61,056 nt of DNA from a virus: the IMG/VR virus record IMGVR_UViG_3300027498_000004, positions 1 through 61,056 of that record; one strand, written 5' to 3'. Shown here piece by piece: positions 3,951-61,056 of the stretch; position 1 is the stretch's first letter; each line of letters opens with the position of its first letter. A program made the position numbers and the translations under genes. The notes below the pieces were generated by a model. That model was given only the letters and a program-made list of their open reading frames with translations. It searched no databases and was not told the DNA's origin.

Positions 3951-3985
3951 TCAAAGAGACTCACGAAAAGTAAGAACTAAATTAG

Positions 3986-4058
<73 letters not shown>

Positions 4059-15097: not shown

Positions 15098-15188
15098 TAT
15101 GTCAATTCTAACATATCATATCAATTCCAATTAGAATATTTTATTACGAGTCCGTTATTATTGTCGTAGATAAATGACAAAGTAGTTT

Positions 15189-29184: not shown

Positions 29185-29196
29185 AAATTACTTAAG

Positions 29197-31769: not shown

Positions 31770-31771
31770 TG

Positions 31772-32899: not shown

Positions 32900-32998
32900 A
32901 TGAACAGTTGTAAATCTCATGCTTGTAAGAGCAACAGGCTATTTTTTGTCAGCTGTGCATTGATAGTTTTTTCACTTATTATATTAGTATGTTTCTAA
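32900..32998 (+). CDS. candidate 32-aa single-TM peptide at the head of the lysis cassette
   Basis: ATG ORF MNSCKSHACKSNRLFFVSCALIVFSLIILVCF, too short for the ORF track. Confidence 0.3.
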   Translation: MNSCKSHACKSNRLFFVSCALIVFSLIILVCF

Positions 32999-33363
32999 CA
33001 ATTCATTTCACTTCAAATATGGTTGCAGTAATATTTGCTGGGATCGCTGGACTACTTGCTGCCTGGGCAAAGATAGAGAGTGCTAAAGCCGTAAAGGATA
33101 CCAGACAACTCACTGCATTAAAAGAAAGCAATGAAACGCTCATCAAGGTTAACGAGGATCTACGAAATACCTGTCATGATCTCATGGAGGACAATGCATC
33201 GCTGAGGGTGGCAATCAATAAGATGAAAGAATCCTTCGAGACGACAGAAAAGACACTGTTAGCAGAAATTGACCGTAAGGAAAACGTTATACAAGAGACG
33301 ATGAAAAAATATGAGACTTTAAAGCTTCGTTTCGATGCTCTCGAGAAGAAGTTGAACCAGTAA
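32989..33363 (+). CDS. membrane-anchored coiled-coil protein (lysis-associated, spanin/holin-accessory-like)
   Basis: N-terminal TM VAVIFAGIAGLLAAWA followed by a coiled coil. Alternative ATG at 33019. Confidence 0.6.
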   Translation: MFLTIHFTSNMVAVIFAGIAGLLAAWAKIESAKAVKDTRQLTALKESNETLIKVNEDLRNTCHDLMEDNASLRVAINKMKESFETTEKTLLAEIDRKENVIQETMKKYETLKLRFDALEKKLNQ

Positions 33364-33373
33364 ATTTTGAATC

Positions 33374-33637
33374 ATGAATGATTTTTTAGCTCCAATTATT
33401 GACAACCTAAAGGCAAGAAGCCCAAGGCTATTTTTATTCATACAGTTGATCCTGATGGGATTGTTGTATATCATTAATCAAGGTGCGGACCTCGGAGTAA
33501 TCGAGCTCACGCCAGTGATTAAACAAATAGGCACCTGGGTAAACTATGTGATCATCCTATTGATAGGTGGAACAGGATCGAGGACTACTCGATATGTCCA
33601 GATATCTCCTCCAGGAGAATCCAAACAAGCTGCATGA
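33374..33637 (+). CDS. holin-like membrane protein (2 TM)
   Basis: LFLFIQLILMGLLYII and WVNYVIILLIGGTG hydrophobic helices. Located just upstream of the endolysin gene. Confidence 0.55.
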   Translation: MNDFLAPIIDNLKARSPRLFLFIQLILMGLLYIINQGADLGVIELTPVIKQIGTWVNYVIILLIGGTGSRTTRYVQISPPGESKQAA

Positions 33638-33714: not shown

Positions 33715-34311
33715 ATGGGAAAGACTGTAATACTAGACAATGGCCACGCTGGAATGATTAATGGGAAGTATTCCACTCCTGGCAAGAGATCACCGAACTG
33801 GAGCAAAGGAGTGCTGTATGAGGGCGCATTCAATAGATGGATCGTCAACGGCATAATGCGGATCCTGGACAGGAATAAAGTGCCATACTACCATGTTAGT
33901 CCAGAGCTGCGAGATATTCAGCTACAGACCAGGGTAAGACGTGCAAATAAGATTTATAGCAATAACAGAGATACTTACCTATTGAGCATCCATGCCAATG
34001 CTGGAGGAGACACAGGAATAGAAGGATTCACTTCTCCTGGAGAAACCAGAGCCGACCATATAGCAGATACCTTCTTAAAGAACTTTGAAGCCAAGTTCCC
34101 ATCGATAAAGACCCGATTTGACTATTCGGATGGAGATCGCGATAAAGAGGCTGCATTCTACGTATTGCGAGAGACTTCTTGTCCAGCCTTCCTCTTCGAG
34201 TGTGGCTTTATGGATAACCAGGAGGATTACATGCTACTCACCGATCCAGAGTTCCAAGATATGACATCTGCAAACCTCGCAGGATCAATCATGGAGTTAT
34301 ATAATGGATAA
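33715..34311 (+). CDS. N-acetylmuramoyl-L-alanine amidase (Amidase_3) endolysin
   Basis: VILDNGHAG...LLSIHANAGG...AAFYVLRETSCPAFLFECGFMDN, the typical Amidase_3 pattern. Confidence 0.85.
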   Translation: MGKTVILDNGHAGMINGKYSTPGKRSPNWSKGVLYEGAFNRWIVNGIMRILDRNKVPYYHVSPELRDIQLQTRVRRANKIYSNNRDTYLLSIHANAGGDTGIEGFTSPGETRADHIADTFLKNFEAKFPSIKTRFDYSDGDRDKEAAFYVLRETSCPAFLFECGFMDNQEDYMLLTDPEFQDMTSANLAGSIMELYNG

Positions 34312-37175: not shown

Positions 37176-37811
37176 ATGTTACAACGAATAATAATTCATC
37201 AAATTAAAGGCCTCGGCAATATTGTCAATCCTGAGAAAATACGAAAAGCGATCGCACACTTCATTGGTGCCTGCCTCTTCCTTCTCATGTTTTTCATGAT
37301 GGGTAATACGCCAGAGCCGAAACCGATCGAAGCTGAAGTGATACTGCCAGTTCAAAAGAAGAAGGAAACAAAAAAGGATCCTCGCATTCTGGCATACATA
37401 AAACGCTTTGATAAAGTAGCTGAAGCTGAGGAGGAGAAGTTCGGCATTCCGAAGAGTATCAAACTGGCTCAGGGTATACTAGAATCCAACTATGGTACCA
37501 GCTTCTTAGCAGACGCACACAATAACCATTTTGGGTTGAAGTGCTTCTCTAGAAAGTGTCAAAAGACGCACTGTGTCAATTTAACGGATGATAGCCATAA
37601 GGACTTCTTTAGGGCTTACAAATCTGCATGGGAGAGCTGGAGGGATCACTCACAATTCCTCAACGGTCCAAGGTATAAGCATCTTCATAAGATTCCAGCA
37701 TCAGACTACAAAGCCTGGGCAAAGGGATTGAAGAAGGCAGGCTATGCCACAGACAAGAAGTATGCGGATAAACTTATCAAAATAATCGAGCACTATGGTT
37801 TAAATCGGTAA
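37176..37811 (+). CDS. membrane-anchored glucosaminidase-domain peptidoglycan hydrolase
   Basis: N-terminal TM AHFIGACLFLLMFFMMG. IPKSIKLAQGILESNYGTSFLADAHNNHFGLKCF matches the FlgJ/glucosaminidase motif. Confidence 0.8.
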   Translation: MLQRIIIHQIKGLGNIVNPEKIRKAIAHFIGACLFLLMFFMMGNTPEPKPIEAEVILPVQKKKETKKDPRILAYIKRFDKVAEAEEEKFGIPKSIKLAQGILESNYGTSFLADAHNNHFGLKCFSRKCQKTHCVNLTDDSHKDFFRAYKSAWESWRDHSQFLNGPRYKHLHKIPASDYKAWAKGLKKAGYATDKKYADKLIKIIEHYGLNR

Positions 37812-44800: not shown

Positions 44801-45138
44801 GAACGTCAGACCTTAGAGTAGCAAAACATGAGATATTTAACTTCCAGAGTTTCCTCAATGAGACAAATAGCATCAGCAGTTCATTGGTCACTAATAGTAA
44901 GTTTGGATTGTATCTGTACCCTTTCGCCAATCAAGTCTTCCATGAGAAAGGACCTAACAAGCTCAAGGAGGTTTTAGATGTAATATTCGAAGCATTGGAC
45001 TTCCTGGAGAAGAAGGTATTTCCTGGATCAACAGCTTTGCTTTTGAAGTTGCCTGTGCTGAAATGGATAATTATTGGTAAATTCACATATAAATTTATTA
45101 TTGACATCCATAAATTGCTATCAAATGAAGAAGCTTAA
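44797..45138 (+). CDS. hypothetical protein (113 aa)
   Basis: ORF track; ATGA junction upstream. Confidence 0.5.
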   Translation: MRTSDLRVAKHEIFNFQSFLNETNSISSSLVTNSKFGLYLYPFANQVFHEKGPNKLKEVLDVIFEALDFLEKKVFPGSTALLLKLPVLKWIIIGKFTYKFIIDIHKLLSNEEA

Positions 45139-46249
45139 CATTCTATTTTCGTTTTTATTCCTCATTACATTATCCTTTGCTCAGGAGAGGATAATCGTAT
45201 ACGATACACCACCTCCAGAGTCTGAGATAGACTGCTCACTACCAACTCCAATCATCCAAAATAAGGCAAGAGCCCTTTCCCAAATAGACCCTTACCCAAG
45301 GGAGATGCATGGGATACAGTTTGCACACTCTAAAGGTTGGACTGGAAAAGGTATTAAAATTGCTATCCTGGACACAGGAGTAAAGGCACACGATGACCTT
45401 CCTAGCGTTAAAGAAATAAGAGACTATACTGGCGACTCTAATTGCTGCGACAACCATGCGACACATGTATTTGGTACCAATGCAGCACTAGATAATACTT
45501 TTGGAGTAGTAGGATCTTGTGAACCAGATTTATATGACTTCCGAGTATTAGATAATAATGGATCAGGTAGCTCGATCCGAATCGGTGAAGCCATTGTAGA
45601 CGCTGCGGACGCTGGTATGGATATTATTTCCATGAGCCTTGGAGGAGACCCAAACCAAGCATTAAAGGATGCCTGCGACTATGCAATACTACAGGGATGC
45701 CTTGTCGTTGCTGCTGCAGGAAACTCTGGATCAGACGGTATGATATATCCCGCCAAGTGGTCAAATATCATAAGTGTATTTGCAGTTGATCAACAGAAGC
45801 AATCGCCAGACTTTAGCTCACATGGAATTGGTATTGTATCGAGTGGAGGAGTAAATATTTTGTCAACGATCAACAATGACGAGTATGCTCCTTTTTCTGG
45901 TACTTCTATGGCGACACCAACTATTTCTGGAGTGCTGGCCATAATGCAAGAGTACGCAATAGCACAGGGCAAAAGAATGACCCAGGTCGATGCTATTAAT
46001 GAGCTTATCCGAATTAGTGAGGATATTGGAGATCCAGGAAGAGATGTCAGGACTGGCTATGGAATCCCCGACTTAACTAAATACATTCTAAAGGAAAGAG
46101 GCGAGGTTGAAATAGAGCCCGATGATGATCCTATTGTTGATGAACCGATAAATGATGATCCACAAAACAATCCCCTTGCACTTGTGATAGTTCTTGGAAT
46201 ACTGATTGGAGTTGTTGGATTGATTGTATTAACTCAAAATAAAAAGTAG
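45125..46249 (+). CDS. subtilisin-like S8 serine protease with a signal peptide and a C-terminal TM anchor
   Basis: MKKLNILFSFLFLITLSFAQ. Catalytic triad: D in AILDTGV, H in NHATHVFGT, S in GTSMATP. Oxyanion region AAAGNSG. C-terminus LALVIVLGILIGVVGLIVL. Confidence 0.85.
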   Translation: MKKLNILFSFLFLITLSFAQERIIVYDTPPPESEIDCSLPTPIIQNKARALSQIDPYPREMHGIQFAHSKGWTGKGIKIAILDTGVKAHDDLPSVKEIRDYTGDSNCCDNHATHVFGTNAALDNTFGVVGSCEPDLYDFRVLDNNGSGSSIRIGEAIVDAADAGMDIISMSLGGDPNQALKDACDYAILQGCLVVAAAGNSGSDGMIYPAKWSNIISVFAVDQQKQSPDFSSHGIGIVSSGGVNILSTINNDEYAPFSGTSMATPTISGVLAIMQEYAIAQGKRMTQVDAINELIRISEDIGDPGRDVRTGYGIPDLTKYILKERGEVEIEPDDDPIVDEPINDDPQNNPLALVIVLGILIGVVGLIVLTQNKK

Positions 46250-49158: not shown

Positions 49159-50301
49159 ATGTCACAAAAAGGAAATTACACAAACGAAATTGCCCAGGCA
49201 CCTGTTACAATGATTATAGACCCTCAACCTTACGGCTTAGAGCATAACAAGGCTCTGGCTGTAAGGGAATTTTTCACACCTATGATCGATGTGATGGTAA
49301 AGCTTGAGAATGAAGTAAACGAAGTGCTGGCTCTCAAGGAGCAGCATGGCTATGCAGAGGAGGTTATTACTAAGGCAACCGAAGCATACAAGAAGCTAGT
49401 GAAGGCTCGAACTGCTACTGCAAAAATCCACAAGGAGGTGAAAGCTACAAACCTCAAGGAGGGACGCTTTATCGATTCCCATAAGAACACTCAGGTTATG
49501 ATTGGGGATCCACTGGAAAAGGCAATGAAGGCGATCAAGGATCATGCAGAGAACCTGGAACGGGAGAGAATCAAAAAGGTAAAGGAGGATCGTACTAATA
49601 AACTCCTCGCTTTGGATGTGGTCGAATCTGATATCCCCGATATGATAGGGATAATGACGGACGGCATGTTTGAAAACCTCCTCCTTGGCGCACAGGCTGC
49701 ATTTGATAAGCGACTGGAAGAGGCAAAGGAAGAAGCTCGCCTGGAGCAGCTAAGGATAGACCAGGAGGCAAGAGAAAAGGCAGAGAAGGAAGCCAAACGC
49801 CAGGAAGAGCTCCGAATAGCACAGGAAGCAGCTGCCGAAGCAAAGAAGGCCCAGGAAGCAGCCGAAGCAGCTGCGAAGAAGGTCAAAGATGAGGCTGAGG
49901 CTAAATTACAGGCTGAACGTGATGCGAAAGCCAAAGTTGAAGCCCAGGCCAAGGAGGAGAAGCGTAAGGCAGACCTAGCAGCACAGAAAGCCCGACAAGC
50001 GATGCAGAAGGCAGAGCAATCGCAAAAGAACGCTGAGAAGGCTAAAAAACAGGTTTCGGAGCTAAAAAAGAGAAACGAAACGCTGAGTTTCAATGCTCCT
50101 GCGCCAACTGGCAATAAACCGAAGGAAGAGAAGCTCACCAAGATAGCTCAGGACCGAAACGCCAGCAACTTGATCAAGCTCAAAGCTGACCTAATCAAAA
50201 TAAAGGACGGATACTCATTTCATGGACCCAAGCACGAATCATTCAAGAGGAGATTGGACGCGACTCTAGATAGAATTCTGGTTGGTATAAACCAATTGTA
50301 A
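49159..50301 (+). CDS. hypothetical protein with a long K/E/A-rich coiled-coil segment
   Basis: 380-aa ORF; low-complexity central region. Confidence 0.75.
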   Translation: MSQKGNYTNEIAQAPVTMIIDPQPYGLEHNKALAVREFFTPMIDVMVKLENEVNEVLALKEQHGYAEEVITKATEAYKKLVKARTATAKIHKEVKATNLKEGRFIDSHKNTQVMIGDPLEKAMKAIKDHAENLERERIKKVKEDRTNKLLALDVVESDIPDMIGIMTDGMFENLLLGAQAAFDKRLEEAKEEARLEQLRIDQEAREKAEKEAKRQEELRIAQEAAAEAKKAQEAAEAAAKKVKDEAEAKLQAERDAKAKVEAQAKEEKRKADLAAQKARQAMQKAEQSQKNAEKAKKQVSELKKRNETLSFNAPAPTGNKPKEEKLTKIAQDRNASNLIKLKADLIKIKDGYSFHGPKHESFKRRLDATLDRILVGINQL

Positions 50302-50303
50302 AT

Positions 50304-50717
50304 ATGAGCTCTTTACTTACCAGCAAGGAGTTTGCTCCTATCACCAGGCACGAGGAACATTACTGCAGATATATCTGTGCTATTGTCAGGAAGTTTGCCA
50401 CTGATCGCAGTAAGCGCATGAGCTACATTCAAATCTCCGAATTTGTGGAGAAAGAGGGCAAGGTAAAGGTAGAGCCGATCAGGATAAAAGCTATCCTGGA
50501 CAGAGAGCGAGCTGCAGGAAGATTAGAGAATGTAATCGAAGTAAGCAACGCTATCTGGACAGAGAAGGACGTTAAAGTTCTGGAGCTATTCAAGGAGGCT
50601 CTAATAGTGCGATCTAAGAAGCTGGCTAAGATTGCAAAAGCTTTAAAAACTGATGTGGTGTACGACTCCACAAAAGTGAATAACAGTTATACAAACAGGA
50701 AGGATCTATGGTCTTAA
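50304..50717 (+). CDS. hypothetical protein (137 aa)
   Basis: ORF track. Confidence 0.7.
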   Translation: MSSLLTSKEFAPITRHEEHYCRYICAIVRKFATDRSKRMSYIQISEFVEKEGKVKVEPIRIKAILDRERAAGRLENVIEVSNAIWTEKDVKVLELFKEALIVRSKKLAKIAKALKTDVVYDSTKVNNSYTNRKDLWS

Positions 50718-50986
50718 TTGCTGAAATACCAAAAATGCAAAAGCGCACCCTGGAGAAGCACCAACGCAATCTGCAGATTAGGAAAGCCAATATTGAAAAA
50801 GCTCTCAAGAAGCTAACTGCAAAATATACCAGATACGATTATGTTGGTATAAAAATTGATTGTGTTGGTGTGAAAATGGGTGTGGATCTACATGCGAAAA
50901 ATATCGTCAAGATATTAGAATCACAGAATACCGAATACACCCTCATACTTATTGAAATCTCAAAAGAATTAAACCTTAGAAAATGA
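50708..50986 (+). CDS. hypothetical protein (92 aa)
   Basis: ORF track; overlaps both neighbours. Confidence 0.6.
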   Translation: MVLIAEIPKMQKRTLEKHQRNLQIRKANIEKALKKLTAKYTRYDYVGIKIDCVGVKMGVDLHAKNIVKILESQNTEYTLILIEISKELNLRK

Positions 50987-52140
50987 AAAATGTAAAAAGT
51001 AAATTGTGTATTGGCTGGATCCTGTTTCTCTGGATCGCTTCTGCTTATGTAATAGTTGCTCAGGTAGATACTATCACCATACAGCCTGGACAAAGTGTTG
51101 TAATTGTATCTTCGGAGCAGGCAGTGCAAGAACCAGAGCCCGAACCAGTCGGGACGCAGTTCTATGTGAATACAACCAACAACATCGATCACTATCCAAA
51201 TTTAAGAGGGAAAGGTGCTCGATACTTCTGGAATGTAGAACATGATCTCCCCTTTAATGGTATCCTCCAGAATGGTGGGAAGATGGCAAAGAACCACACC
51301 TTTATTCCTACAAATGAAATGAACGATTGCATTGGAGTAGATTACAATGGATCGATGTGCGACAATGCAATGCGAGTTAAAAAGTTGAGCAATCAATTTG
51401 ATATCGTAATGGTGGTCCCCCAGGCTGTGAAGAATCCGTTTGACTTCTGGCTCAATTGGCCCAACAAATTTATTGCCATGTGGATATGGGGTGATACTGG
51501 TGGATTGCAATACGCAAAAATAAAAGAACACTTCCTGGCATTGCTCTGGTCGACTCATGGAAATATAGACTTTGTTCAGATAGCCAATGAGCCCTGGGGG
51601 ATGAGTCCTGCCCAATATAACATTGTTGAATCTGCAAGAGTAGATGCATGGCTGGAGTACAATACAAGCCAAGGTCTCTCTTTAGATGATTATGAGCAGT
51701 TCACTCCGAAGTTAGTCACAGCAGCAATGCCAATCGGTCAAGGACTGCAGACAGAGCTCTCCTTCCAGAACCTAGCAAACTCAAAGTTTGCAAAGTACTA
51801 TTACAGCGTTGCAGTACATGGATACAATAGAACGCCAATGAGCGAGTGGAGTAGTGATGCAAGTATCACGAATGAAATAATAGATATGGCTTTAGAGTTC
51901 TGCAGGGTTTATATGCCACATTGCAGTTTACAGATCACTGAGACTGGAGCTCCCAATGATATCATCGATCAACATATCCAGTCATTAAAAGCTAAGACCA
52001 GCGAGGAAGAGGGCATCGATATAGTTTGGTTGTATAATTTATTCAGTGATGGATCAGATATATTTAAAAATAGCTTCTTCTTGAGTGATGATGGCGTACC
52101 TACTGAAGCAGCAATTAAATATAATATCATCACGAACTGA
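50983..52140 (+). CDS. secreted clan GH-A-like glycoside hydrolase (tentative)
   Basis: Signal peptide ...WILFLWIASAYVIVAQ. Candidate acid/base IANEPWG and nucleophile LQITETGAP. Confidence 0.45.
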   Translation: MKNVKSKLCIGWILFLWIASAYVIVAQVDTITIQPGQSVVIVSSEQAVQEPEPEPVGTQFYVNTTNNIDHYPNLRGKGARYFWNVEHDLPFNGILQNGGKMAKNHTFIPTNEMNDCIGVDYNGSMCDNAMRVKKLSNQFDIVMVVPQAVKNPFDFWLNWPNKFIAMWIWGDTGGLQYAKIKEHFLALLWSTHGNIDFVQIANEPWGMSPAQYNIVESARVDAWLEYNTSQGLSLDDYEQFTPKLVTAAMPIGQGLQTELSFQNLANSKFAKYYYSVAVHGYNRTPMSEWSSDASITNEIIDMALEFCRVYMPHCSLQITETGAPNDIIDQHIQSLKAKTSEEEGIDIVWLYNLFSDGSDIFKNSFFLSDDGVPTEAAIKYNIITN

Positions 52141-52241
52141 TGAGTCCATACAAAGCTAAGAACCGATTACAAACTTTTCTAATATACATGCTAATGTTTA
52201 TTGTAATAATTGCCATTGGTGTATTGATAGAAAACTCTTAA
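52140..52241 (+). CDS. candidate 33-aa single-TM peptide
   Basis: MSPYKAKNRLQTFLIYMLMFIVIIAIGVLIENS. The ATG overlaps the previous TGA. Confidence 0.35.
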   Translation: MSPYKAKNRLQTFLIYMLMFIVIIAIGVLIENS

Positions 52242-52253
52242 CAGGAATATAGG

Positions 52254-52829
52254 ATGAGCACAAAAAAGAAAACCACTCCAGCCAAAAAAGCAACTACTCG
52301 CAAGCGTAAGACTACTAAGCCGAAGAAGCAGCAGGAGGAGAAGTTGACTGTAGAGCACAAAGGAAGATATGATTGGGAGGCAAACAACTTCTTGATCACT
52401 CAGGAGTGGCTTGAGTTTCTAAAAGCTAATAAGCGTCCTCCTACATTCAAACATCTTGCAGAAGCAACTGGTCTAAGCTATATCACTGTATTTCGGCACA
52501 TGAATGATGAACGGACTCTCAAGATACGAGAGCAGATGAAGGAGTACAGTGTTCTGGTACCAGATATGATGGCTGCAATATTCAGAGCAGGAATGTCTGG
52601 AAAGCCACAGAGCCAAAAGCTATTCATGGAGGTGACTGGAGCATACATCCCAAAGATGGCGCAGACGGATCCAGAAGGAGAAGCATTACAGCCAATAGTC
52701 GGCAGCGATATTACTATCATCAATAAGCATACTGGTCCAAGGATTAGTTCAAAGACGAAGACAACGGTCAAGGCTAAATCCAGGAAGACCAATCGCGATA
52801 AATTAAAGGACTTAGAAAAAGGAAAATAG
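52254..52829 (+). CDS. basic HTH protein, terminase-small-subunit-like or a regulator
   Basis: Lys/Thr-rich N-terminus. PPTFKHLAEATGLSYITVFRHMND HTH, then AGMSGKPQSQKLFMEVTGAY, resembling gp3-type small terminases. It is not adjacent to terL except across about 9.8 kb of the circle. Confidence 0.4.
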   Translation: MSTKKKTTPAKKATTRKRKTTKPKKQQEEKLTVEHKGRYDWEANNFLITQEWLEFLKANKRPPTFKHLAEATGLSYITVFRHMNDERTLKIREQMKEYSVLVPDMMAAIFRAGMSGKPQSQKLFMEVTGAYIPKMAQTDPEGEALQPIVGSDITIINKHTGPRISSKTKTTVKAKSRKTNRDKLKDLEKGK

Positions 52830-53103
52830 TCCAAAGGTAAAACAACCAACCGAAGAAGAGTGGCGTTCCTGACGAGGAGCTGCAACGTTGTATTATGTAT
52901 TACAGATGAGATTGATATCATGAGTCAGTCTTATGGGGTTTGAGGGGTAACCTTTGAGTCTTTTAAACCAGCTAATTTGTAACACAGAGGTATAATACAT
53001 CGCCAAGAAGCCACTCAATTTTTGCCTCCTACCATAACATCACAATCCAGTACCACTCTCTAATCTCCGCTTTACTCAAGCGTAATAACCATGCATATTT
53101 GTA

Positions 53104-53135
53104 TTGTACTTATTATCTAACAATATAAATATTTG
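53104..53135 (+). promoter_or_regulatory. candidate promoter for the T9SS-cargo gene (TTG-N21-AATATTTG)
   Basis: TTG at 53104-53106 and a -7-like box at 53128-53135 (one mismatch to TAnnTTTG). Confidence 0.35.
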
Positions 53136-53139
53136 AGTT

Positions 53140-54141
53140 ATGAATTTTTACCCTCCAGAGGATGACGTGCAAGGGCACGAGAGAATTGGCGACACACTAT
53201 ACTTGATCGTCACAGTAATAATGGCTTTGTTTTTTATTCCTACCTTTTGCCAAGCCCAATGCACTCCCTGCAACGACTATTCAATATTCACTGTATACGT
53301 AAGAGGTGACATGGAGATAACCTATGAATCCAACACAAGCCCAAACCATCCAGGGTGGGAAGAGGGAATTGAATGCGATACTACTATAATTGTATTTTCA
53401 ATAGATGGAATCAGAGACACCATTGACCAGGAGCAATGTCACCAGGAAATAATATATCTAGGATGCGGACAGGAGTTTACGCTGATAGAGGATAAGGACA
53501 GCGACAGCGAGGTTCTATTTGTATACTACGACTCTTTAGTAATATCGGATCCAGTAGAGGACACCTTCATTACTTTGCATGAATGCGGAGAGTCTTATTC
53601 TTATACAGAAACTCACTCCAGCTACTTAGGCTGCGACTCTATTGTACACACACAAGTAATTGGATATCCTATTAGCGAATCCACCGACACCCTCCTCCAT
53701 CTAACAGACCACATTACAATCGACACATTGACTAATGAATACGGATGCGATAGTATAGTAACGATCGTCTGGATAGCAACCGACTTTGAAGAGGATCAAG
53801 AATATGAAATAGTGGAGATTGAAACCGAAACCGAAGAGACTCCACCTGCAGAAGAAGTAGAGCTGCAGGTGGATATACCAATAGAGGAGGAGCCAGAGCC
53901 AGTCGCGGATCTATACTTACCAAATGCATTCACACCGAATGGGGACGGCATCAACGATACCTGGCACCCTTTCCCAATAGATAAGAAAATACAATTCACC
54001 ATATATGATCGATGGGGAACAGAACTCTTCCAGGGCACCTCCTGGGACGGCTCCTTCCGCAACTTCAAAGTACAGGGCATAGTAGCATACAGGCTGGAGT
54101 ACGAAGGAGAGGTTCTATCTGGTACCATATCAATTCTATAA
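53140..54141 (+). CDS. secreted protein with a T9SS type-B C-terminal sorting domain (gliding-motility-associated CTD / CHU_C)
   Basis: Signal peptide ...LIVTVIMALFFIPTFCQAQ. Repeated GCDSIV modules and an acidic linker. C-terminus LPNAFTPNGDGINDTWHPF...FTIYDRWGTELFQGTSWDG...GIVAYRLEYEGEVLSGTISIL. Confidence 0.85.
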   Translation: MNFYPPEDDVQGHERIGDTLYLIVTVIMALFFIPTFCQAQCTPCNDYSIFTVYVRGDMEITYESNTSPNHPGWEEGIECDTTIIVFSIDGIRDTIDQEQCHQEIIYLGCGQEFTLIEDKDSDSEVLFVYYDSLVISDPVEDTFITLHECGESYSYTETHSSYLGCDSIVHTQVIGYPISESTDTLLHLTDHITIDTLTNEYGCDSIVTIVWIATDFEEDQEYEIVEIETETEETPPAEEVELQVDIPIEEEPEPVADLYLPNAFTPNGDGINDTWHPFPIDKKIQFTIYDRWGTELFQGTSWDGSFRNFKVQGIVAYRLEYEGEVLSGTISIL

Positions 54142-54170
54142 TTTATTTTTTCACCATAAATATATTACAC

Positions 54171-54878
54171 ATGAAGTATCTAATTTTTACAATCATCACA
54201 TTACTTGGCACAGTCGCATCAGCACAGAACGAAATCGAGACACAAGTAAACCTTGGATTAAAGAAGTCTCAATCAATACTGAGATATGGACTTGGAGACG
54301 TACTCCTGGTCGGGCCATTACTTGGAGGCATATCCGAGGTGGCATACGATGCACAGAATACGGTAAACGATATCCCCCTGGTCAACGTAAACTTTGCCGA
54401 CAAAGTGGTCGGAGTAATAGAGAAGGAGAGAGTTGCAGAGATTCAAAACATATACCTATCTGGAGAGCTGGCCATAAAGACATCTGGAATACGATTGGCA
54501 GCATCGATATCTCTAGGATCCTCCTCAATGTCGCTGGCTTCTTTCGAATCAATCCAGTCTGTACATGTAAGCCCAGGCATTGTCAAACTGATAGGAATTG
54601 ACTTTACTCCCTTAGAAATCAACCGAGACCTCGAGTTTGTATGGTATGACGCCATTGAAATAGGATATATGAACAGGATCAACTGGGAATCGATAATGCT
54701 TGGACAGAATATGAACCAGACCTTCAGTATAAGATTGAACGCTCCTTTCAAGAAGTATTCTACTAAGCACAGGAAGTATAAAGAATACAGACTATTTGTA
54801 GAGCAGTTCCTGGTACCAAGCAAAGGAGTAAAGTCGATCGGAACATACCAGGCTGGACTATCAATACAAATCAAATAA
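54171..54878 (+). CDS. exported protein, possible outer-membrane beta-barrel, directly downstream of the T9SS cargo gene
   Basis: MKYLIFTIITLLGTVASAQ. Alternating hydrophobic strands such as IRLAASISLGSS, TFSIRLNAPF, YQAGLSIQIK. The track start at 54012 overlaps the upstream gene. Confidence 0.7.
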   Translation: MKYLIFTIITLLGTVASAQNEIETQVNLGLKKSQSILRYGLGDVLLVGPLLGGISEVAYDAQNTVNDIPLVNVNFADKVVGVIEKERVAEIQNIYLSGELAIKTSGIRLAASISLGSSSMSLASFESIQSVHVSPGIVKLIGIDFTPLEINRDLEFVWYDAIEIGYMNRINWESIMLGQNMNQTFSIRLNAPFKKYSTKHRKYKEYRLFVEQFLVPSKGVKSIGTYQAGLSIQIK

Positions 54879-54946
54879 TTGTATCAATACAATTACCGAA
54901 ACTCAATGATAGCAAGCATAGTTAAAGAAAAATTGTATCAATACAA
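54877..54946 (+). promoter_or_regulatory. two copies of the palindrome AATTGTATCAATACAA (site E)
   Basis: 54877-54894 (AATTGTATCAATACAATT) and 54931-54946, with starts 54 bp apart. Upstream of the 54981 gene. Confidence 0.5.
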
Positions 54947-54980
54947 GTAAAATAATTTCACAACATAAAATCTAAAAGAG

Positions 54981-55733
54981 ATGAGACATTTAATTCTAAT
55001 TTTTGCAATACTAATCGGCACCCTATTGAACGCTCAAGATGATAATATCTACGATATATCACACATCGCAGTAAAGGACCGAGCGCAGCACTTCAAAGTC
55101 GATGCCGATATCCTCCAGGCAGTGATCGTGGCTTATATGGAGCCCGACTCAGTAGGATACCAGCTCATCACCGAGAAAGGTATGACGCAGAGGGGCAGCG
55201 TTTGGGAAATAGTACATAGGACGGCAAAGTATATGGCTATCCAAATGAAAACCAAGAGGAACTGCACCAATAACATCGCATGCTGGAAGCACACCTTCTT
55301 CAGCTTCATAGATATCATCCCTGAGCATCCAGGAATAGATGTGACAACGGAGCTGCACGATACTGGTAAAGGATACTTCAAAGAGGTGAAGGTCCAGCCA
55401 GAGCCCGAAATAATAATTAATATCGAGGATCCTATCAGCCTGACATGTGATAAGGATGACACGAGCTCTCTATGCCAATGGATGAAGGAACAGAGTGCTA
55501 AAGCCAGCGTTGATCAAATGAGGACTGAGAATTTAGAATGGCAGCAAAGCTTGAATGACCTGGAGTACGACTGGAAGAGGCTTGTAATAGAGATAGGTGA
55601 TATCATATCCAGTCCCCTCCAGGATATTGACCAATATGACCCCAATACGATGGTTGAGGCCTTATATCGGCAGATGGGGCAGCTAGAGAGCCAGACGATC
55701 AAGGTAATGGAGAAAAGAAATCAGTTTAATTAA
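54981..55733 (+). CDS. exported protein (signal peptide MRHLILIFAILIGTLLNAQ)
   Basis: ORF track; signal peptide. Confidence 0.75.
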   Translation: MRHLILIFAILIGTLLNAQDDNIYDISHIAVKDRAQHFKVDADILQAVIVAYMEPDSVGYQLITEKGMTQRGSVWEIVHRTAKYMAIQMKTKRNCTNNIACWKHTFFSFIDIIPEHPGIDVTTELHDTGKGYFKEVKVQPEPEIIINIEDPISLTCDKDDTSSLCQWMKEQSAKASVDQMRTENLEWQQSLNDLEYDWKRLVIEIGDIISSPLQDIDQYDPNTMVEALYRQMGQLESQTIKVMEKRNQFN

Positions 55734-55738
55734 ATAAA

Positions 55739-55772
55739 CTATTGTATATATGGAATAGTTAATGTATATTTG
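55739..55772 (+). promoter_or_regulatory. early promoter, site C (TTG-N20-TATATTTG)
   Basis: CTATTGTATATATGGAATAG (55739-55758). Perfect -7 box at 55765-55772. Confidence 0.6.
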
Positions 55773-55785
55773 AAAAAAGGTAATT

Positions 55786-56019
55786 ATGGCTTCAAAAGCA
55801 GAAATATTCACAGACGGCTTCCATATCACATCAACAAATAGTGGTCTGGTTTGGCTGAAAAAGAAATTCCACGCATCAAACTTTTTTCAAACATCTGAAG
55901 ATCAACTGGCATTTACTGTACCAGGCAAAAAGCTCTTGGATAGTTTTCCAGAGGTGTTCACTAGGATGAATGAACGACTATACTATTTCGAATTACAAAG
56001 GCTGAGAGGCAATTTATAA
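55786..56019 (+). CDS. hypothetical protein (77 aa)
   Basis: ORF track; first gene after promoter C. Confidence 0.65.
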   Translation: MASKAEIFTDGFHITSTNSGLVWLKKKFHASNFFQTSEDQLAFTVPGKKLLDSFPEVFTRMNERLYYFELQRLRGNL

Positions 56020-56031
56020 TTTAAGATCATA

Positions 56032-56102
56032 GGTACCATGTCCGAGTGGCTAGGAGTTGGTTTGCAAAACCAATCACATCGGTTCGAATCCGATTGGTAT
56101 CT
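56032..56102 (+). tRNA. tRNA-Cys (anticodon GCA)
   Basis: Folded by hand: acceptor GGUACCA/UGGUAUC, D arm UCC-GAGUGGCUA-GGA, anticodon arm UUGGU-UUGCAAA-ACCAA, variable loop UCAC, T arm AUCGG-UUCGAAU-CCGAU, discriminator U73. Confidence 0.85.
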
Positions 56103-56127
56103 CGGTTAGACTCTAGTTTTTTGTTGG

Positions 56128-56173
56128 CAGGATCGCCATACCTTCTCAAGGTCATTGGTGGTCCTGTTTTTTT
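56128..56173 (+). terminator. strong intrinsic terminator after tRNA-Cys
   Basis: CAGGATCGCCA pairs with TGGTGGTCCTG (11 bp including 2 G-U). Inner ACCTT/AAGGT stem, then T7. Confidence 0.75.
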
Positions 56174-56187
56174 AAAAGTAAACAATT

Positions 56188-56364
56188 ATGAAACGATACA
56201 TTTACAGGCGAAGAGATAAGTGGCTGTCAGAGGAAGGCATAGTAAAGTACTCGAACAAGATGGGACGTAAAGGCTGGAGAGTAGTTGGTATCCTCGCCAG
56301 TGGTGGTTATGTAAAGGGCAAGAGGCTCACTACACTGTACTTTGAAAAAAGAATCAAATCATGA
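56188..56364 (+). CDS. hypothetical basic protein (58 aa)
   Basis: ATG ORF below the track size cut-off. ATGA overlap with the next ORF. Confidence 0.5.
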   Translation: MKRYIYRRRDKWLSEEGIVKYSNKMGRKGWRVVGILASGGYVKGKRLTTLYFEKRIKS

Positions 56365-56525
56365 GTGATGCTAGAAAAATAATAACTATCCATGAAAAAC
56401 CATCAATACCAACAAAGGAGTATGATTGGTCGGCTTCAAGAGAAGATTATGAATTGGGTGATCATACTGGATTTGGTAGAACAGAGCAAGATGCAATTGA
56501 CCATTTAAAAGAATTAGAATCATGA
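56361..56525 (+). CDS. hypothetical protein (54 aa)
   Basis: ATGA overlaps on both sides. Confidence 0.5.
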   Translation: MSDARKIITIHEKPSIPTKEYDWSASREDYELGDHTGFGRTEQDAIDHLKELES

Positions 56526-57088
56526 GCAAGACTAAACCAATACTATTCAAGACGGACATGGTGGAAGCTATCCTCAACGGGACCAAGACTCAAACTAGAA
56601 GGCTTGTAAAAGATAAGAGTACAAAAGCAAAGTTTGCTCCAGGCGACTTTATGTGGGTAAGAGAGACCTGGCAATAAGTAGATTCATATAAGACTGGAAA
56701 GAAGGAGTATATTTTTAAAACTGATTATCCAGACCCCACAGGATACATTGAGGACTGGCAGGGCTGGAAGCCATCTATCTTCATGCCCAAGGATGCCTGC
56801 AGGTTATTTTTAAAGGTCACCAACGTATACAAGCAGGAGCTTGGCGAAATGACTCAAGAGCAGGCAATAGCTGAAGGCATAGAGGTGTTTTCTGATGGAA
56901 GATATAAGGATTACTTAATGGATAAGAACTATCCAACTCATGGGCACAACTTCCCACTACATTCTTTCAAGAGCCTATGGATGATGATCAACTATGACTG
57001 GAGCGACCTGGACGAGGTTTGGGTATATGAATTTGAAATAGCAGAGCGTCCAGATAACTTCTTAAATACAACCAATGGCAAAGGATAG
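56522..57088 (+). pseudogene. ASCH-like conserved phage protein (KTQTRR / VRETW / PSIFMP family) interrupted by an in-frame TAA at 56675-56677
   Basis: MSKTKPILFKTDMVEAILNGTKTQTRRL...PGDFMWVRETWQ, then a stop, then the same frame continues: VDSYKTGKKEY...GWKPSIFMPKDACRLFLKVTNVYKQELGEMTQEQAIAEGI... Confidence 0.75.
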
Positions 57089-57845
57089 CAAAATACAATG
57101 GACTGATCACACTGTAAACCTATGGTGGGGATGCAGCAAAGTACATACTGGTTGCAAGAACTGCTATGCAGAAAGTCTATCTAATAGATTCGGCAACGAT
57201 ATTTGGGGTGAGAAAAAAGGTCGCAAGCGTATCAAATCGGCATTCAACGACCTCGCGAAGTATCAGGCTCAAGCCCAAGACGAAGGAAAGAAGTACAAAA
57301 TATTTGTTGGCAGTATGATGGATATAGTGGAAGAGAACAAACCTCTCAACAATCCAATAATTGATTACGCTACAATCAGCGACTTAAGAATTAGACTATT
57401 TACTGAAATAGAGCTTGGATACTATCCAGACTTAATATTTCTATTCCTTACCAAGAGACCAGAACGCATTGAAGTATCAGTTCCAAAGATACTGCATTAC
57501 TTCCCCAACGTATGGTTTGGCACTTCTATCAGCAATGCCGAGACTGTATCGTATGGACGTATCCTCCAGCAAGCAAAAGTTCGAAACAAGTTCCTATCAA
57601 TAGAGCCCCATGTAGGAAGGATCAAGCACGATGACATTGGTGGCCTTCTGCATGGCATAGACTGGGTAATACAAGGAGGAGAGAGTGGACCAGGAAAGCG
57701 TCCCTTCGATATTGCCTGGGCACATGAGATGAGGGAGATATGCAGGCTATATAAAACGCCATACTTCTTCAAGCAGATAGACAAGGTCCAAGACAAGGAT
57801 CCTAAACACGAAGCATTATTTAAAAGAGAATTCCCAATATTTTAA
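57075..57845 (+). CDS. phage Gp37/Gp68 family protein (DUF5131)
   Basis: IQWTDHTVNLWWGCSKVHTGCKNCYAE N-terminal three-Cys motif. ...DWVIQGGESGPG... Confidence 0.8.
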   Translation: MAKDSKIQWTDHTVNLWWGCSKVHTGCKNCYAESLSNRFGNDIWGEKKGRKRIKSAFNDLAKYQAQAQDEGKKYKIFVGSMMDIVEENKPLNNPIIDYATISDLRIRLFTEIELGYYPDLIFLFLTKRPERIEVSVPKILHYFPNVWFGTSISNAETVSYGRILQQAKVRNKFLSIEPHVGRIKHDDIGGLLHGIDWVIQGGESGPGKRPFDIAWAHEMREICRLYKTPYFFKQIDKVQDKDPKHEALFKREFPIF

Positions 57846-57847
57846 CT

Positions 57848-58183
57848 ATGGACAAACCAAACCCAAAGCGACAATTCGAAAAAGGGCAGAGAGTAGTTGC
57901 CCTCCAGGATATGCCAGAAATAAAAAAAGGCGAGATCTATCCAGTCATCGATACTTTCATGTGCTGTGAGCAATCTATTGATGTCGGACTAATACTACCT
58001 GAAGGAGTAGTCAAGATATACTGCACCGAATGCAGGGACACGCTCCCACTATCCTCTTACTGGAGAAAGTCGCAGTACTTCGCTCCAGTCACCGAAGTAG
58101 ACGAATTTATACTGGAAGCAATGGATATCGTTCCTGAGCATATTTATATCAAGCCTAAAGAGCGCAAACCAGAGCTAGTATGA
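57848..58183 (+). CDS. hypothetical protein (111 aa)
   Basis: ORF track. Confidence 0.7.
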   Translation: MDKPNPKRQFEKGQRVVALQDMPEIKKGEIYPVIDTFMCCEQSIDVGLILPEGVVKIYCTECRDTLPLSSYWRKSQYFAPVTEVDEFILEAMDIVPEHIYIKPKERKPELV

Positions 58184-60686: not shown

Positions 60687-61056
60687 ATGCAAAAAACATT
60701 GATTTTTAAATCGTATGCTGAATTTCTAAAAAGAGAAGATAAATCTATCAATGGTGTATCAAAATCATTTAGCGAAAAACGTTCAGACTATAAGCAAGAT
60801 AATTCAACAAATAATGGTTGTTGGAATTGCCGGTCTTGCAGCTATTGCAGCGATTGCAGCTATTGCAGCGATTGCAGCGATTGCCGCAATTGCCGGTCTT
60901 GCAGCTATTGCAGCGATTGCAGCTATTGCAGCGATTGCAGCGATTGCAGCGATTGCCGCGATTGCAGCGATTGCAGCTATTGCAGCTATTGCAGCTATTG
61001 CCGCTCTTGCAGCTATTGCAGCTCTTGCAGCTATTGCAGCGATTGCAGCTATTGCA
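60687..61056 (+). CDS. Cys-x-x triplet-repeat protein, 5' portion (runs off the window end; continues at 90-670)
   Basis: ATG 60687, 44 unique codons (MQKTLIFKSYAEFLKREDKS...NSTNNG), then CWN-CRS-CSY-CSD... units to the last base. No stop codon. Confidence 0.8.
   Translation, partial: MQKTLIFKSYAEFLKREDKSINGVSKSFSEKRSDYKQDNSTNNGCWNCRSCSYCSDCSYCSDCSDCRNCRSCSYCSDCSYCSDCSDCSDCRDCSDCSYCSYCSYCRSCSYCSSCSYCSDCSYC
60819..61056 (+). repeat. 9-bp tandem repeat array, 5' part (26 full units plus the start of the next)
   Basis: Read directly: TGT TGG AAT, TGC CGG TCT, then TGC AGC TAT/GAT units. The last 89 bp equal 1-89. Confidence 0.95.

What the first reader, a model, noticed from the sequence alone, without database searches (positions are those of the whole stretch)
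53140..54141. Phage gene encoding a cargo protein for the host type IX secretion system (type-B C-terminal sorting domain)
The last ~75 residues are LPNAFTPNGDGINDTWHPFPIDKKIQFTIYDRWGTELFQGTSWDGSFRNFKVQGIVAYRLEYEGEVLSGTISIL. This reproduces the consensus of the gliding-motility-associated C-terminal domain (T9SS type-B CTD, CHU_C family): P-N-x-F-T-P-N-G-D-G-x-N-D, I-[YF]-[ND]-R-W-G, W-D-G, and a terminal hydrophobic strand.

The protein also has a Sec signal peptide, repeated GCDSIV modules as found in Flavobacteriia surface adhesins, and an acidic E/P-rich linker. T9SS exists only in Bacteroidota. The phage therefore appears to hijack the host T9SS to place its own protein on the surface of the infected cell. 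Candidate roles include a gliding-track adhesin mimic, receptor masking or superinfection exclusion, aggregation, and altered motility of the infected cell. I do not know of a characterised phage T9SS substrate.
Basis: partly seen in the sequence, partly recalled or inferred. Interest (0 to 1): 0.85.

Follow-up and report, generated by a model that had tools for sequence, protein, structure and literature searches.

The report
Phage T9SS cargo gene with partner barrel
A complete 61-kb phage of a Bacteroidota host encodes a secreted, very acidic protein ending in a genuine type-B "type IX secretion" sorting domain, always next to a phage-specific outer-membrane barrel and a third secreted protein, so the phage probably uses the host's secretion machine to put its own protein on the cell surface.

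Summary
ORF 53140-54141 (+, 333 aa) ends in a type-B T9SS sorting domain that passes both curated cut-offs: TIGR04131 39.8 bits against 35, and CHU_C 38.1 against 27. The domain models confidently as a β-sandwich, and its best PDB match is a T9SS substrate CTD bound to the translocon.

The window is a complete tailed phage with an 89-bp terminal repeat. Its terminase relatives infect Bacteroidota, and about 12 of its proteins have Bacteroidota "Q-rule" signal peptides.

The new result is that the gene belongs to a conserved three-gene cassette: CTD protein, a ~235-aa outer-membrane β-barrel (54171-54878) and a ~250-aa secreted protein (54981-55733). All ten barrel-carrying phage-like contigs examined fit this cassette, and the complete ones show several gene orders. 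In bacteria, the slot next to a type-B cargo gene is often held by its PorP/SprF shuttle. The phage barrel is not homologous to PorP/SprF (hhalign probability 2.4%) but may do the same job.

Phage T9SS sorting domains were noted in silico in 2019 and 2020, and 37 IMG/VR contigs carry type-B CTDs. None has been characterised experimentally, and no cultured phage in INPHARED has one. Secretion and function remain inferred.

The parts
52830..53139 (+). 310-bp non-coding region upstream of the gene. It has blocks conserved in four related phage contigs (e.g. ATATTTGTA..., TATTATnTAA, TTTACTTAA) and is a candidate promoter or regulatory region.
   Evidence: DNA alignment A5. Sigma-70 and Bacteroidota consensus promoter scans were uninformative.
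53140..53256 (+). N-terminal export signal, aa 1-39. It consists of a conserved acidic extension (MNFYPPEDDVQGHERIGDT), a hydrophobic segment L20-F36, and a predicted signal peptidase I site CQA|Q (Bacteroidota Q-rule).
   Evidence: (helix 14-38). The extension is conserved at the protein level, with synonymous changes, in the window, L001, L003 and L047. The L008, L049 and L131 homologs have ordinary K-rich signal peptides at the same place. Q-rule: PMC5837995.
53257..53781 (+). Passenger region, aa 40-214. It has 8 Cys and is very acidic. It carries two GCDSIV β-hairpin-like modules (aa 164-169 and 202-207). The N-terminal half has relatives only in the few related phage contigs.
   Evidence: The AF2 model is poor here (pLDDT ~30 for aa 36-138, 64-76 for aa 140-180). 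No Pfam, NCBIfam, PHROG or PDB match.
53782..53904 (+). Acidic Glu/Pro-rich linker, approximately aa 215-255, predicted disordered.
53905..54141 (+). Type-B T9SS C-terminal sorting domain (aa 256-333) plus the stop codon.
   Evidence: HMMs; pLDDT 82-96; top PDB match 8glk_D, a T9SS substrate CTD, TMt 0.65; also RgpB CTD 7pq4 and 5ag8.
54171..54878 (+). Phage-specific outer-membrane β-barrel protein, 235 aa, signal peptide ...VASA|Q. It is the candidate dedicated shuttle or anchor for the CTD protein.
   Evidence: AF2 pLDDT 83.2, pTM 0.70. Foldseek hits are all OM β-barrels in PDB and phage 'outer membrane proteins' in BFVD. The family has only 10 clusters among 1.84 billion representatives. 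It lies within two genes of a CHU_C gene in every locus long enough to show one. It is not PorP/SprF.
54981..55733 (+). Third member of the cassette: a 250-aa secreted protein (signal ...LLNA|Q) with two invariant Cys and a helical C-terminal part. Presumably periplasmic; function unknown.
   Evidence: Alignment A4. It co-occurs with the barrel in the window, L001, L008, L047, L048, L049, L130, L131 and L132. No Pfam, NCBIfam, PHROG or PDB match.

Best explanation
The gene encodes a phage-made cargo of the host's type IX secretion system, and it works as part of a three-gene phage cassette.

Proposed mechanism:
1. The precursor is exported by Sec and cut after Ala39, leaving an N-terminal Gln. 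This is inferred from the sequence and its homologs.
2. The 8-Cys acidic passenger matures in the periplasm (inferred).
3. The C-terminal type-B CTD is recognised by the host T9SS translocon and carried across the outer membrane. The domain identity is shown; the transport is inferred from what is known of the family.
4. Bacterial type-B cargos are handed to, and stay bound to, a cognate PorP/SprF-type outer-membrane barrel. In the same way, the phage protein is received and held on the cell surface by the phage's own small outer-membrane β-barrel, encoded immediately downstream. The barrel fold and the strict gene linkage are shown; the partnership is inferred.
5. The third secreted protein acts as a periplasmic accessory, a purely positional analogy to PorE in the PorP-PorE-PG1035 complex. 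This step is speculative.

The net effect is that the infected Bacteroidota cell displays a highly acidic, adhesin-like phage protein. The most plausible uses are superinfection exclusion or receptor masking, protection of progeny from re-adsorption to debris, and interference with gliding or adhesion.
For: - CTD identity: passes both curated cut-offs, lies at the extreme C-terminus, and has the CTD fold, with a solved T9SS substrate CTD as best PDB match.
- Export signal: an A|Q site conserved across homologs. About 12 proteins of this phage share Q-rule signal peptides, a Bacteroidota hallmark (PMC5837995) already noted in P. gingivalis phages (PMC10367356).
- Host phylum: TerL relatives are phages of Bacteroides, Flavobacterium, Phocaeicola, Parabacteroides and Nonlabens. 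The closest cellular CTDs are nearly all in genomes labelled Bacteroidota.
- Cassette: CTD gene, barrel and third gene are all present in 7 of 7 loci with enough flank (window, L001, L047, L008, L049, L130, L131), in several gene orders. The cassette is partly present in 3 truncated contigs. All contexts are phage-like (terminase, endolysins, HNH, helicase, DNA polymerase A).
- Barrel: a confident OM β-barrel model.
- Bacterial parallel: in about 10 of 80 bacterial loci a verified PorP_SprF gene (PF11751, 8 of 8) lies immediately downstream of the type-B CTD gene, the same slot the barrel occupies in the window.
- Literature: type-B cargos need cognate PorP/SprF shuttles (PMC12618676) and are anchored through them (PMC9143113).
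- The phage-cassette CTDs are divergent (19-46 bits against 41-92 for bacterial ones). This fits co-evolution with a private partner.
Against: - No experiment exists, and the host is unidentified, so the presence of a T9SS in the host is inferred from phylum only.
- The barrel has no detectable homology to PorP/SprF: no Pfam or NCBIfam hit at E<=10, hhalign probability 2.4%, and no hit with a local PorP HMM. It is also about 100 aa shorter.
- The fold match is generic OM barrel, with TM-scores of only 0.3-0.5.
- Phage-encoded OM barrels are common and need not be T9SS-related.
- Many bacterial type-B cargos are 'orphans' that use a shared shuttle (PMC12618676), so a private shuttle is not required.
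- The n-region of the signal peptide is acidic (net about -4), which is atypical for Sec substrates.
- CTD motifs D and E are weak. In two cassette homologs (L008, L049) motif A is degraded, and L008 falls below the Pfam cut-off. Paillat 2025 found all five motifs necessary for SprB CTD secretion.
- No complex prediction could be run.
Confidence: 0.55

Rival explanations
1. Orphan cargo. The protein is a genuine T9SS type-B substrate, but it uses a host PorP/SprF-type shuttle, as orphan type-B cargos in F. johnsoniae do. The neighbouring barrel and third protein are independent surface-modifying 'moron' genes, or act with the cargo only after secretion.
For: The barrel is not homologous to PorP/SprF. 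Orphan type-B cargos sharing one shuttle are documented (PMC12618676). Bacterial loci without an adjacent PorP gene are common (about 70 of 80). The other 37 viral contigs with type-B CTDs carry neither PorP/SprF nor, L008 apart, this barrel. Phage OM barrels are widespread.
Against: CTD gene and barrel are linked within two genes in all 8 loci that show both, through several gene-order rearrangements. The barrel family was found nowhere else among 1.84 billion representatives. That degree of linkage is hard to explain for unrelated functions.
Confidence: 0.2
2. Decoy or jammer. The CTD engages the host T9SS or its type-B shuttles chiefly to block them. This would shut down export of host adhesins or receptors such as SprB-like proteins, or stop gliding, rather than display a functional passenger.
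For: Several IMG/VR viral contigs encode 'CTD-only' mini-proteins in which a signal peptide is followed directly by a type-B CTD (L013, L018, L032, L024/L027/L030). Two of these contigs resemble cultured Flavobacterium phages. This suggests the CTD alone can be useful to a phage. The passenger here is poorly structured and very acidic.
Against: The passenger's Cys pattern and GCDS modules are conserved across the cassette homologs, which argues for a functional passenger. A jammer would not obviously need its own OM barrel and third protein. The phage-cassette CTDs are divergent rather than optimised to the consensus.
Confidence: 0.12
3. T9SS-independent envelope module. The CTD-like β-sandwich is only a binding domain for the phage barrel. 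The triad forms an envelope-spanning or outer-membrane-perturbing complex, for example a spanin substitute acting in lysis, with the N-terminal segment serving as an uncleaved membrane anchor.
For: No spanin-like genes were recognised next to the endolysin (only ORFs of at least ~90 aa were looked at). The N-terminal cytoplasmic extension is conserved in 4 homologs, which is odd for a disposable signal peptide. In L130 the cassette follows a Phage_lysozyme gene. Motif A of the CTD is degraded in some homologs.
Against: In the window the cassette is 19 kb from the holin/endolysin genes, and it is not adjacent to them in L003 either; no endolysin is annotated within the fetched parts of L001, L047, L049 or L131. 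A|Q or G|Q cleavage sites are conserved, and three homologs have ordinary cleavable signal peptides. Neither partner has a lipobox. The window protein passes both curated type-B CTD models.
Confidence: 0.08
4. Virion component. The protein is a structural or decoration protein in which the CTD acts only as an Ig-like fold.
For: Ig-like domains are common on phage virions (general knowledge). The CTD is an Ig-like β-sandwich.
Against: The protein has an export signal. The gene lies in the accessory right end of the genome, more than 20 kb from the head and tail genes. It is linked to an OM barrel. No PHROG structural family matches.
Confidence: 0.02

Closest known systems
Type-B CTD cargo with cognate PorP/SprF shuttle pairs of Flavobacterium johnsoniae (SprB/SprF, Fjoh_3952/Fjoh_3951; Paillat 2025 PMC12618676; Gorasia 2022 PMC9143113)
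   Same: A Sec signal plus a C-terminal type-B CTD. The cargo gene lies directly next to a gene for an outer-membrane β-barrel. In bacteria the PorP/SprF gene occupies the same downstream slot.
   Different: The phage barrel is not a PorP/SprF homolog and is about 100 aa shorter. The cassette has a third conserved secreted protein. It is encoded by a phage. The CTD is divergent, with weak motifs D and E.
PorP-PorE-PG1035 complex of Porphyromonas gingivalis (Gorasia 2022, PMC9143113)
   Same: A three-part arrangement: OM β-barrel, periplasmic/OM-associated protein and type-B CTD surface protein.
   Different: This is an analogy of composition only. The phage barrel shows no homology to PorP/SprF, and the third protein matches no known family. 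No interaction data exist.
'Cryophage' T9SS cargo genes (Bellas et al. 2020, PMC7468147)
   Same: Phage-encoded proteins with T9SS sorting domains, proposed to hijack the host T9SS. In silico only.
   Different: Those are type-A CTDs on recognisable enzymes (endoglucanase, GH39, PA14). The paper's passages on these genes mention no partner barrel. The present protein has a type-B CTD and a passenger of unknown function.
T9SS sorting-domain proteins near crAss-BACON ORFs in gut phage cluster 2 (de Jonge et al. 2019, PMC6949934)
   Same: T9SS sorting domains annotated in uncultured Bacteroidota phage genomes.
   Different: The CTD type is not specified and was not analysed further. The genomic neighbourhood differs (near head genes, with BACON repeats).
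Phage-encoded outer-membrane β-barrel 'moron' proteins (e.g. lambda Lom of the Ail/OmpX family, from general knowledge; BFVD 'outer membrane protein' entries including Cellulophaga phages phiST and phi17:2 and Tenacibaculum phage Gundel_1)
   Same: A small OM β-barrel encoded by a phage. The structural matches are to Ail, OmpX, NspA and OprF-N and to phage OMPs.
   Different: No sequence-family membership. Here the barrel is strictly linked to a T9SS type-B cargo gene.

Membership tests
T9SS type-B C-terminal sorting domain (TIGR04131 / Pfam CHU_C PF13585) | Profile HMM score above the curated cut-off | tested here: met
   TIGR04131 39.8 bits against 35. PF13585 38.1 bits against 27. Custom CTD HMM 75.5 bits.
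T9SS type-B C-terminal sorting domain (TIGR04131 / Pfam CHU_C PF13585) | Domain located at the extreme C-terminus of the protein | tested here: met
   The HMM envelope is 253-333 of 333 residues, and the stop codon follows directly.
T9SS type-B C-terminal sorting domain (TIGR04131 / Pfam CHU_C PF13585) | [quoted passage not shown] | tested here: met
   Hydrophobic segment L20-F36 and site CQA|Q. The homologs have A|QC, A|Q or G|Q sites at the same place, three of them with canonical K-rich signal peptides. Caveats: the assessment was heuristic, no SignalP was available, and the 19-residue n-region is acidic.
T9SS type-B C-terminal sorting domain (TIGR04131 / Pfam CHU_C PF13585) | Five conserved motifs A-E within the last ~100 residues, each necessary for SprB CTD secretion (Paillat 2025) | tested here: inconclusive
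   PNAFTPNGDGIND, IYDRWG and WDG match the consensus of 119 CTDs. 'GVYxY' is GIVAY, and 'GxVTLIR' is GTISIL without the terminal basic residue. The exact motif definitions are in a figure that is not held.
T9SS type-B C-terminal sorting domain (TIGR04131 / Pfam CHU_C PF13585) | Compact Ig-like β-sandwich fold like solved T9SS CTDs | tested here: met
   AF2 pLDDT 82-96 for aa ~255-333. Best PDB match is 8glk_D, the NucA CTD in the T9SS translocon complex (probability 1.0, TMt 0.65). RgpB CTDs 7pq4 and 5ag8 also match. The solved CTDs are type A.
T9SS type-B C-terminal sorting domain (TIGR04131 / Pfam CHU_C PF13585) | Producer cell possesses a T9SS | not testable with these tools
   The host is unknown. 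A Bacteroidota host is inferred from Q-rule signal peptides, TerL relatives and the closest cellular CTDs.
T9SS type-B C-terminal sorting domain (TIGR04131 / Pfam CHU_C PF13585) | Secretion depends on T9SS components | not testable with these tools
   This requires genetics in a host.
PorP/SprF family (PF11751), considered for the downstream barrel 54171-54878 | Match to the PorP_SprF profile | tested here: not met
   No Pfam or NCBIfam hit at E<=10. No hit with a local HMM built from verified PorP/SprF proteins. hhalign of A2 against A6 gives probability 2.4%.
PorP/SprF family (PF11751), considered for the downstream barrel 54171-54878 | Outer-membrane β-barrel with a signal peptide | tested here: met
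   AF2 pLDDT 83.2. All top PDB and BFVD matches are OM β-barrels. The signal is VASA|Q. Some family members end in an aromatic residue.
PorP/SprF family (PF11751), considered for the downstream barrel 54171-54878 | Gene adjacent to a type-B CTD cargo gene | tested here: met
   The barrel lies within two genes of a CHU_C gene in the window, L001, L003, L008, L047, L049, L130 and L131.
PorP/SprF family (PF11751), considered for the downstream barrel 54171-54878 | Typical length of about 300-350 aa | tested here: not met
   The phage family is 234-245 aa. Most of the verified bacterial PorP/SprF proteins are 305-355 aa (one ORF is 431 aa).
Phage spanins (lysis) | An inner-membrane-anchored protein plus an outer-membrane lipoprotein, encoded in the lysis cassette | tested here: not met
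   There is no lipobox in the barrel or the third protein. The cassette is 19 kb from the endolysin at 33715-34311 in the window. It is adjacent to a lysozyme gene only in L130.
Ail/Lom/OmpX-type phage moron OMP | Sequence-family membership (Pfam Ail_Lom or OMP barrel families) | tested here: not met
   No Pfam hit at E<=10. The structural resemblance is only generic, with TM-scores of 0.3-0.5.

The most novel reading that the evidence does not exclude
The three genes form a self-contained, phage-borne surface-display cassette. It comprises a type-B CTD cargo, its own outer-membrane shuttle/anchor from a previously unknown barrel family unrelated to PorP/SprF, and a periplasmic helper. Under this reading a phage plugs a private docking station into the host T9SS, and T9SS type-B shuttles are not restricted to the PorP/SprF family. 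A more extreme version, also not excluded, is that the small barrel exports or anchors the CTD protein without the T9SS at all.
Probability: 0.4. Interest if true: 0.8.

Novelty: new variant of a known kind. Interest (0 to 1): 0.6.

Why it matters
T9SS type-B secretion is the poorly understood branch of the system. [quoted passage not shown] A compact phage cassette, with a divergent CTD paired to a minimal, non-PorP/SprF barrel, would be a natural orthogonal pair for dissecting recognition and anchoring. It could also be useful for surface-display engineering in Bacteroidota.

For phage biology, it would be a concrete, testable case of a phage remodelling the surface of a Bacteroidota host through the host's own secretion machine. 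This is relevant to superinfection exclusion, to gliding and adhesion, and to phage-host dynamics of Bacteroidota in natural environments. No phage T9SS cargo has been tested experimentally, so even a simple secretion assay would be new.

Tried and rejected
- DNA-level search of 50001-58000 against INPHARED found only a tRNA-sized hit.
- Pfam, NCBIfam and PHROG scans found no family for the passenger, the barrel, the third protein or the upstream neighbours, even at E<=10.
- Sequence searches of the target and the third family against PDB gave nothing significant.
- A profile search with the barrel alignment in the 5.8-billion-protein set returned only family members and no bridge to PorP/SprF.
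- Three look-ups of bacterial type-B cargo loci showed no adjacent PorP/SprF. PorP/SprF sequences were finally obtained from the genome-contig scan, and hhalign showed no homology to the phage barrel.
- Sigma-70 and Bacteroidota (TTTG / TAnnTTTG) promoter and terminator scans were not enriched and were uninformative. One motif search was mis-specified and found nothing.
- Pattern-based retrieval of the barrel family from IMG/VR failed because the family is too divergent.
- The AF2 model of the passenger is unreliable (pLDDT ~30-70), so no fold-based function could be assigned.
- tblastn of the helicase was not informative about the host.
- A virion-component reading and a spanin reading were considered and judged unlikely (see the rival explanations).
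Full report
**1. Observation**

The ORF exists exactly as described: 53140..54141, + strand, 333 aa, ending with the quoted sequence.

- The C-terminal ~78 residues match the curated type-B T9SS sorting-domain models above their cut-offs. NCBIfam TIGR04131 scores 39.8 bits against 35, E 3.6e-10. Pfam CHU_C PF13585 scores 38.1 bits against 27.
- An HMM I built from the C-termini of 119 homologs scores 75.5 bits over aa 256-325, with the envelope reaching the last residue.
- The motifs PNAFTPNGDGIND, IYDRWG and WDG align to the consensus. The last two consensus elements (GVYxY, GxVTLIR) are present only weakly, as GIVAY and GTISIL.
- The AF2 model is poor for the whole protein (mean pLDDT 57) but confident for the CTD (pLDDT 82-96), which forms a β-sandwich.
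- The best PDB match is chain D of 8glk, the CTD of the substrate NucA bound in the T9SS translocon (TMt 0.65). RgpB CTDs follow.
- The two GCDSIV modules, the Glu/Pro-rich linker and the 8 Cys of the mature protein are all present. The mature protein is extremely acidic, with 62 Asp+Glu against 9 Lys+Arg.

**2. The genome is a phage of a Bacteroidota host**

- The window encodes a large terminase, a tape-measure protein, a major head protein, endolysins, RecT, an exonuclease, a helicase, a replication initiator and methyltransferases. All protein-coding genes recognised are on the + strand.
- Its first and last 89 bases are identical, so it is a complete genome of about 61 kb. No integrase was seen among the ORFs scanned.
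- Three lines of evidence point to a Bacteroidota host. First, about 12 proteins have signal peptides ending ...A|Q or S|Q, the Bacteroidota 'Q-rule' (PMC5837995), which has already been noted in P. gingivalis phages (PMC10367356). Second, 213 of the 234 INPHARED records with a TerL match are phages named for Bacteroides, Flavobacterium, Phocaeicola, Parabacteroides or Nonlabens. Third, nearly all of the best 80 cellular relatives of the CTD are in genomes labelled Bacteroidota, such as Flavobacteriales, Saprospiraceae and Chitinophagaceae; a handful carry other labels.
- Within the window only this ORF carries a type-B CTD. The other secreted proteins scanned (eight of the ~12, plus the cassette neighbours) show no T9SS CTD by Pfam or NCBIfam.

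**3. The gene belongs to a conserved three-gene cassette**

- Full-length relatives of the protein are very few (P0002, P0003, P0004; about 30-33% identity). All other hits match the CTD, in some cases together with the preceding GCDS modules.
- The relatives lie on phage-like contigs with terminase, GH108 endolysin, HNH, helicase, DNA polymerase A or Phage_lysozyme genes.
- Immediately downstream in the window are two more secreted proteins: 54171-54878 (235 aa) and 54981-55733 (250 aa).
- The first of these models confidently (pLDDT 83.2, pTM 0.70). All its top structural matches are outer-membrane β-barrels: OprF-N, NspA, FadL, Ail, OmpX and PagL in PDB, and phage 'outer membrane proteins' in BFVD.
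- Its family is tiny, with 10 clusters among 1.84 billion representatives, all 234-245 aa.
- Using local HMMs for the CTD, the barrel and the third protein, I found all three genes in every locus with sufficient flank:

| Locus | Gene order |
|---|---|
| window, L001, L047 | CTD - barrel - third |
| L130 | CTD - barrel - 68 aa - third |
| L131 | CTD - two small ORFs - barrel - third |
| L008 | barrel - third - CTD |
| L049 | barrel - 98 aa - CTD - 60 aa - third |
| L003 (truncated contig) | CTD - barrel |
| L048, L132 (truncated contigs) | barrel - third (a 98-aa ORF lies between them in L048) |

Linkage that survives gene-order rearrangement argues for a shared function.

**4. Relation to the known type-B pathway**

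- Type-B cargos require cognate PorP/SprF-like outer-membrane shuttles, often encoded next to them (PMC12618676). They remain attached to the cell through these barrels. In P. gingivalis the complex is PorP (barrel), PorE (periplasmic) and PG1035 (type-B cargo) (PMC9143113).
- In the 80 bacterial loci I fetched, about 10 have a gene immediately downstream of the CTD gene that I verified as PorP_SprF (PF11751, 8 of 8). This is the same slot as the barrel in the window.
- The phage barrel is nevertheless not a PorP/SprF homolog. It has no Pfam or NCBIfam hit at E<=10, no hit with a local PorP HMM, and hhalign probability 2.4%. It is also about 100 aa shorter.
- I therefore do not file it as PorP/SprF. 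I propose that it works like one.
- The CTDs of the cassette proteins score lower than bacterial ones: CHU_C 19-46 bits against 41-92. This is compatible with co-evolution with a private partner, but it also leaves room for T9SS-independent readings.

**5. Unusual N-terminus**

- Four cassette homologs share the cytoplasmic extension MNFYPxxDDxQGxxRxGD before the hydrophobic segment. Synonymous differences in the DNA show that the conservation is at the protein level.
- Three other homologs have ordinary K-rich signal peptides.
- Most homologs keep the A|QC site; L131 has A|QQ and L130 G|QC.
- The role of the extension is unexplained.

**6. Mechanism and rivals**

Best-supported mechanism: Sec export and cleavage at A39|Q40; T9SS translocation through the type-B CTD; capture and anchoring by the phage barrel; the third protein acting as a periplasmic helper; display of an acidic, Cys-rich, adhesin-like protein on the infected cell. 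The purpose (exclusion or receptor masking, debris protection, interference with gliding) is speculative.

Rivals:
- (a) Orphan cargo that uses host shuttles.
- (b) Decoy that jams the T9SS. This is made more interesting by the 'CTD-only' mini-proteins on other viral contigs.
- (c) A T9SS-independent envelope or lysis module. This is weakened because the cassette is 19 kb from the lysis genes here, although it follows a lysozyme gene in L130.
- (d) A virion protein, which is very unlikely.

**7. Novelty**

- The idea of phage T9SS cargo is published in silico. T9SS sorting-domain proteins were noted in gut phage lineages (PMC6949934). [quoted passage not shown]
- I also found type-B CTD ORFs on 37 IMG/VR contigs. 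In 35 of the 38 ORFs there is a signal peptide, and the CTD lies at or within ~17 residues of the C-terminus in 37 of 38.
- On the other hand, no cultured phage among 50,697 INPHARED records has a detectable type-B CTD. Only two uncultured megaphages do, as tested with two different queries.
- No PHROG family matches any cassette protein.
- A 2024 T9SS review that mentions phages discusses them only in connection with gliding-mediated phage transport and does not mention phage-encoded cargo.
- I found no report of a type-B cargo in a phage, or of a cargo-barrel-third-protein cassette.
- I therefore rate it a new variant of a known kind. It is of moderate-to-high interest because it is directly testable and touches the open question of type-B CTD-shuttle recognition.

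Noticed in passing
window 23071-32683: A run of consecutive genes between the head/tail region and the lysis genes, seven of which encode proteins with Bacteroidota-type signal peptides: 1234, 155, 136, 242, 763, 93 and 303 aa (26780-27607, 275 aa, lies among them and has none). None has a Pfam, NCBIfam or PHROG match apart from a weak GFO_1090/Nhe-like hit for 27604-28071. This is an unusually large secreted-protein complement for a phage.
   Followed up: partly
window 45125-46249: A secreted subtilisin-like protease (Peptidase_S8, E 8e-38; signal ...SFA|Q) encoded among the replication and modification genes.
   Followed up: partly
window 50983-52140: A 385-aa secreted protein two genes upstream of the target. 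It contains 'IANEPWG' and 'LQITETG', which by eye resemble the acid/base and nucleophile motifs of clan GH-A glycoside hydrolases. It has no Pfam, NCBIfam or PHROG hit and no CTD. It is syntenic in L047.
   Followed up: partly
window 1-89 and 60968-61056: An exact 89-bp direct terminal repeat, indicating a complete (circularly assembled or terminally redundant) genome of about 60,967 bp.
   Followed up: yes
window 53140-53196 (aa 1-19): The conserved acidic N-terminal extension MNFYPxxDDxQGxxRxGD precedes the signal-peptide core. It is conserved at the protein level in four phage homologs and absent from three others. Its function is unexplained.
   Followed up: partly
L013 9944-10267; L018 9944-10267; L032 9944-10225; L024 8919-9290; L027 9986-10354; L030 4063-4431: IMG/VR viral contigs encode 'CTD-only' mini-proteins of 93-123 aa, in which a signal peptide is followed almost directly by a type-B CTD. 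These could be T9SS or shuttle decoys. L013 and L018 share a neighbouring phosphoesterase gene with cultured Flavobacterium, Polaribacter and Cellulophaga phages.
   Followed up: partly
L130 2931-6692: In this related contig the cassette (CTD, barrel, 68-aa ORF, third protein) lies directly after a Phage_lysozyme gene and an 88-aa ORF. This is the only case of lysis-gene adjacency.
   Followed up: no
INPHARED LR756502.1 (~519118-519324, 597568-597843) and LR745206.1 (~15172-15402, 578922-579119): Two uncultured megaphages of about 640 kb each contain several type-B CTD-like segments. They are the only GenBank phage records that do. Both records are unannotated.
   Followed up: no
window 3985-4058 (-) and 56032-56103 (+): tRNA-Met lies on the minus strand, although every gene recognised is on the plus strand. 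tRNA-Cys lies just downstream of the cassette. The cassette proteins are Cys-containing, but no link was tested.
   Followed up: no
window 33715-34311 and 37176-37811: Two endolysin-like genes. The first follows two small transmembrane ORFs (32989-33363, 33374-33637) that are likely holins. No spanin-like genes were recognised.
   Followed up: partly
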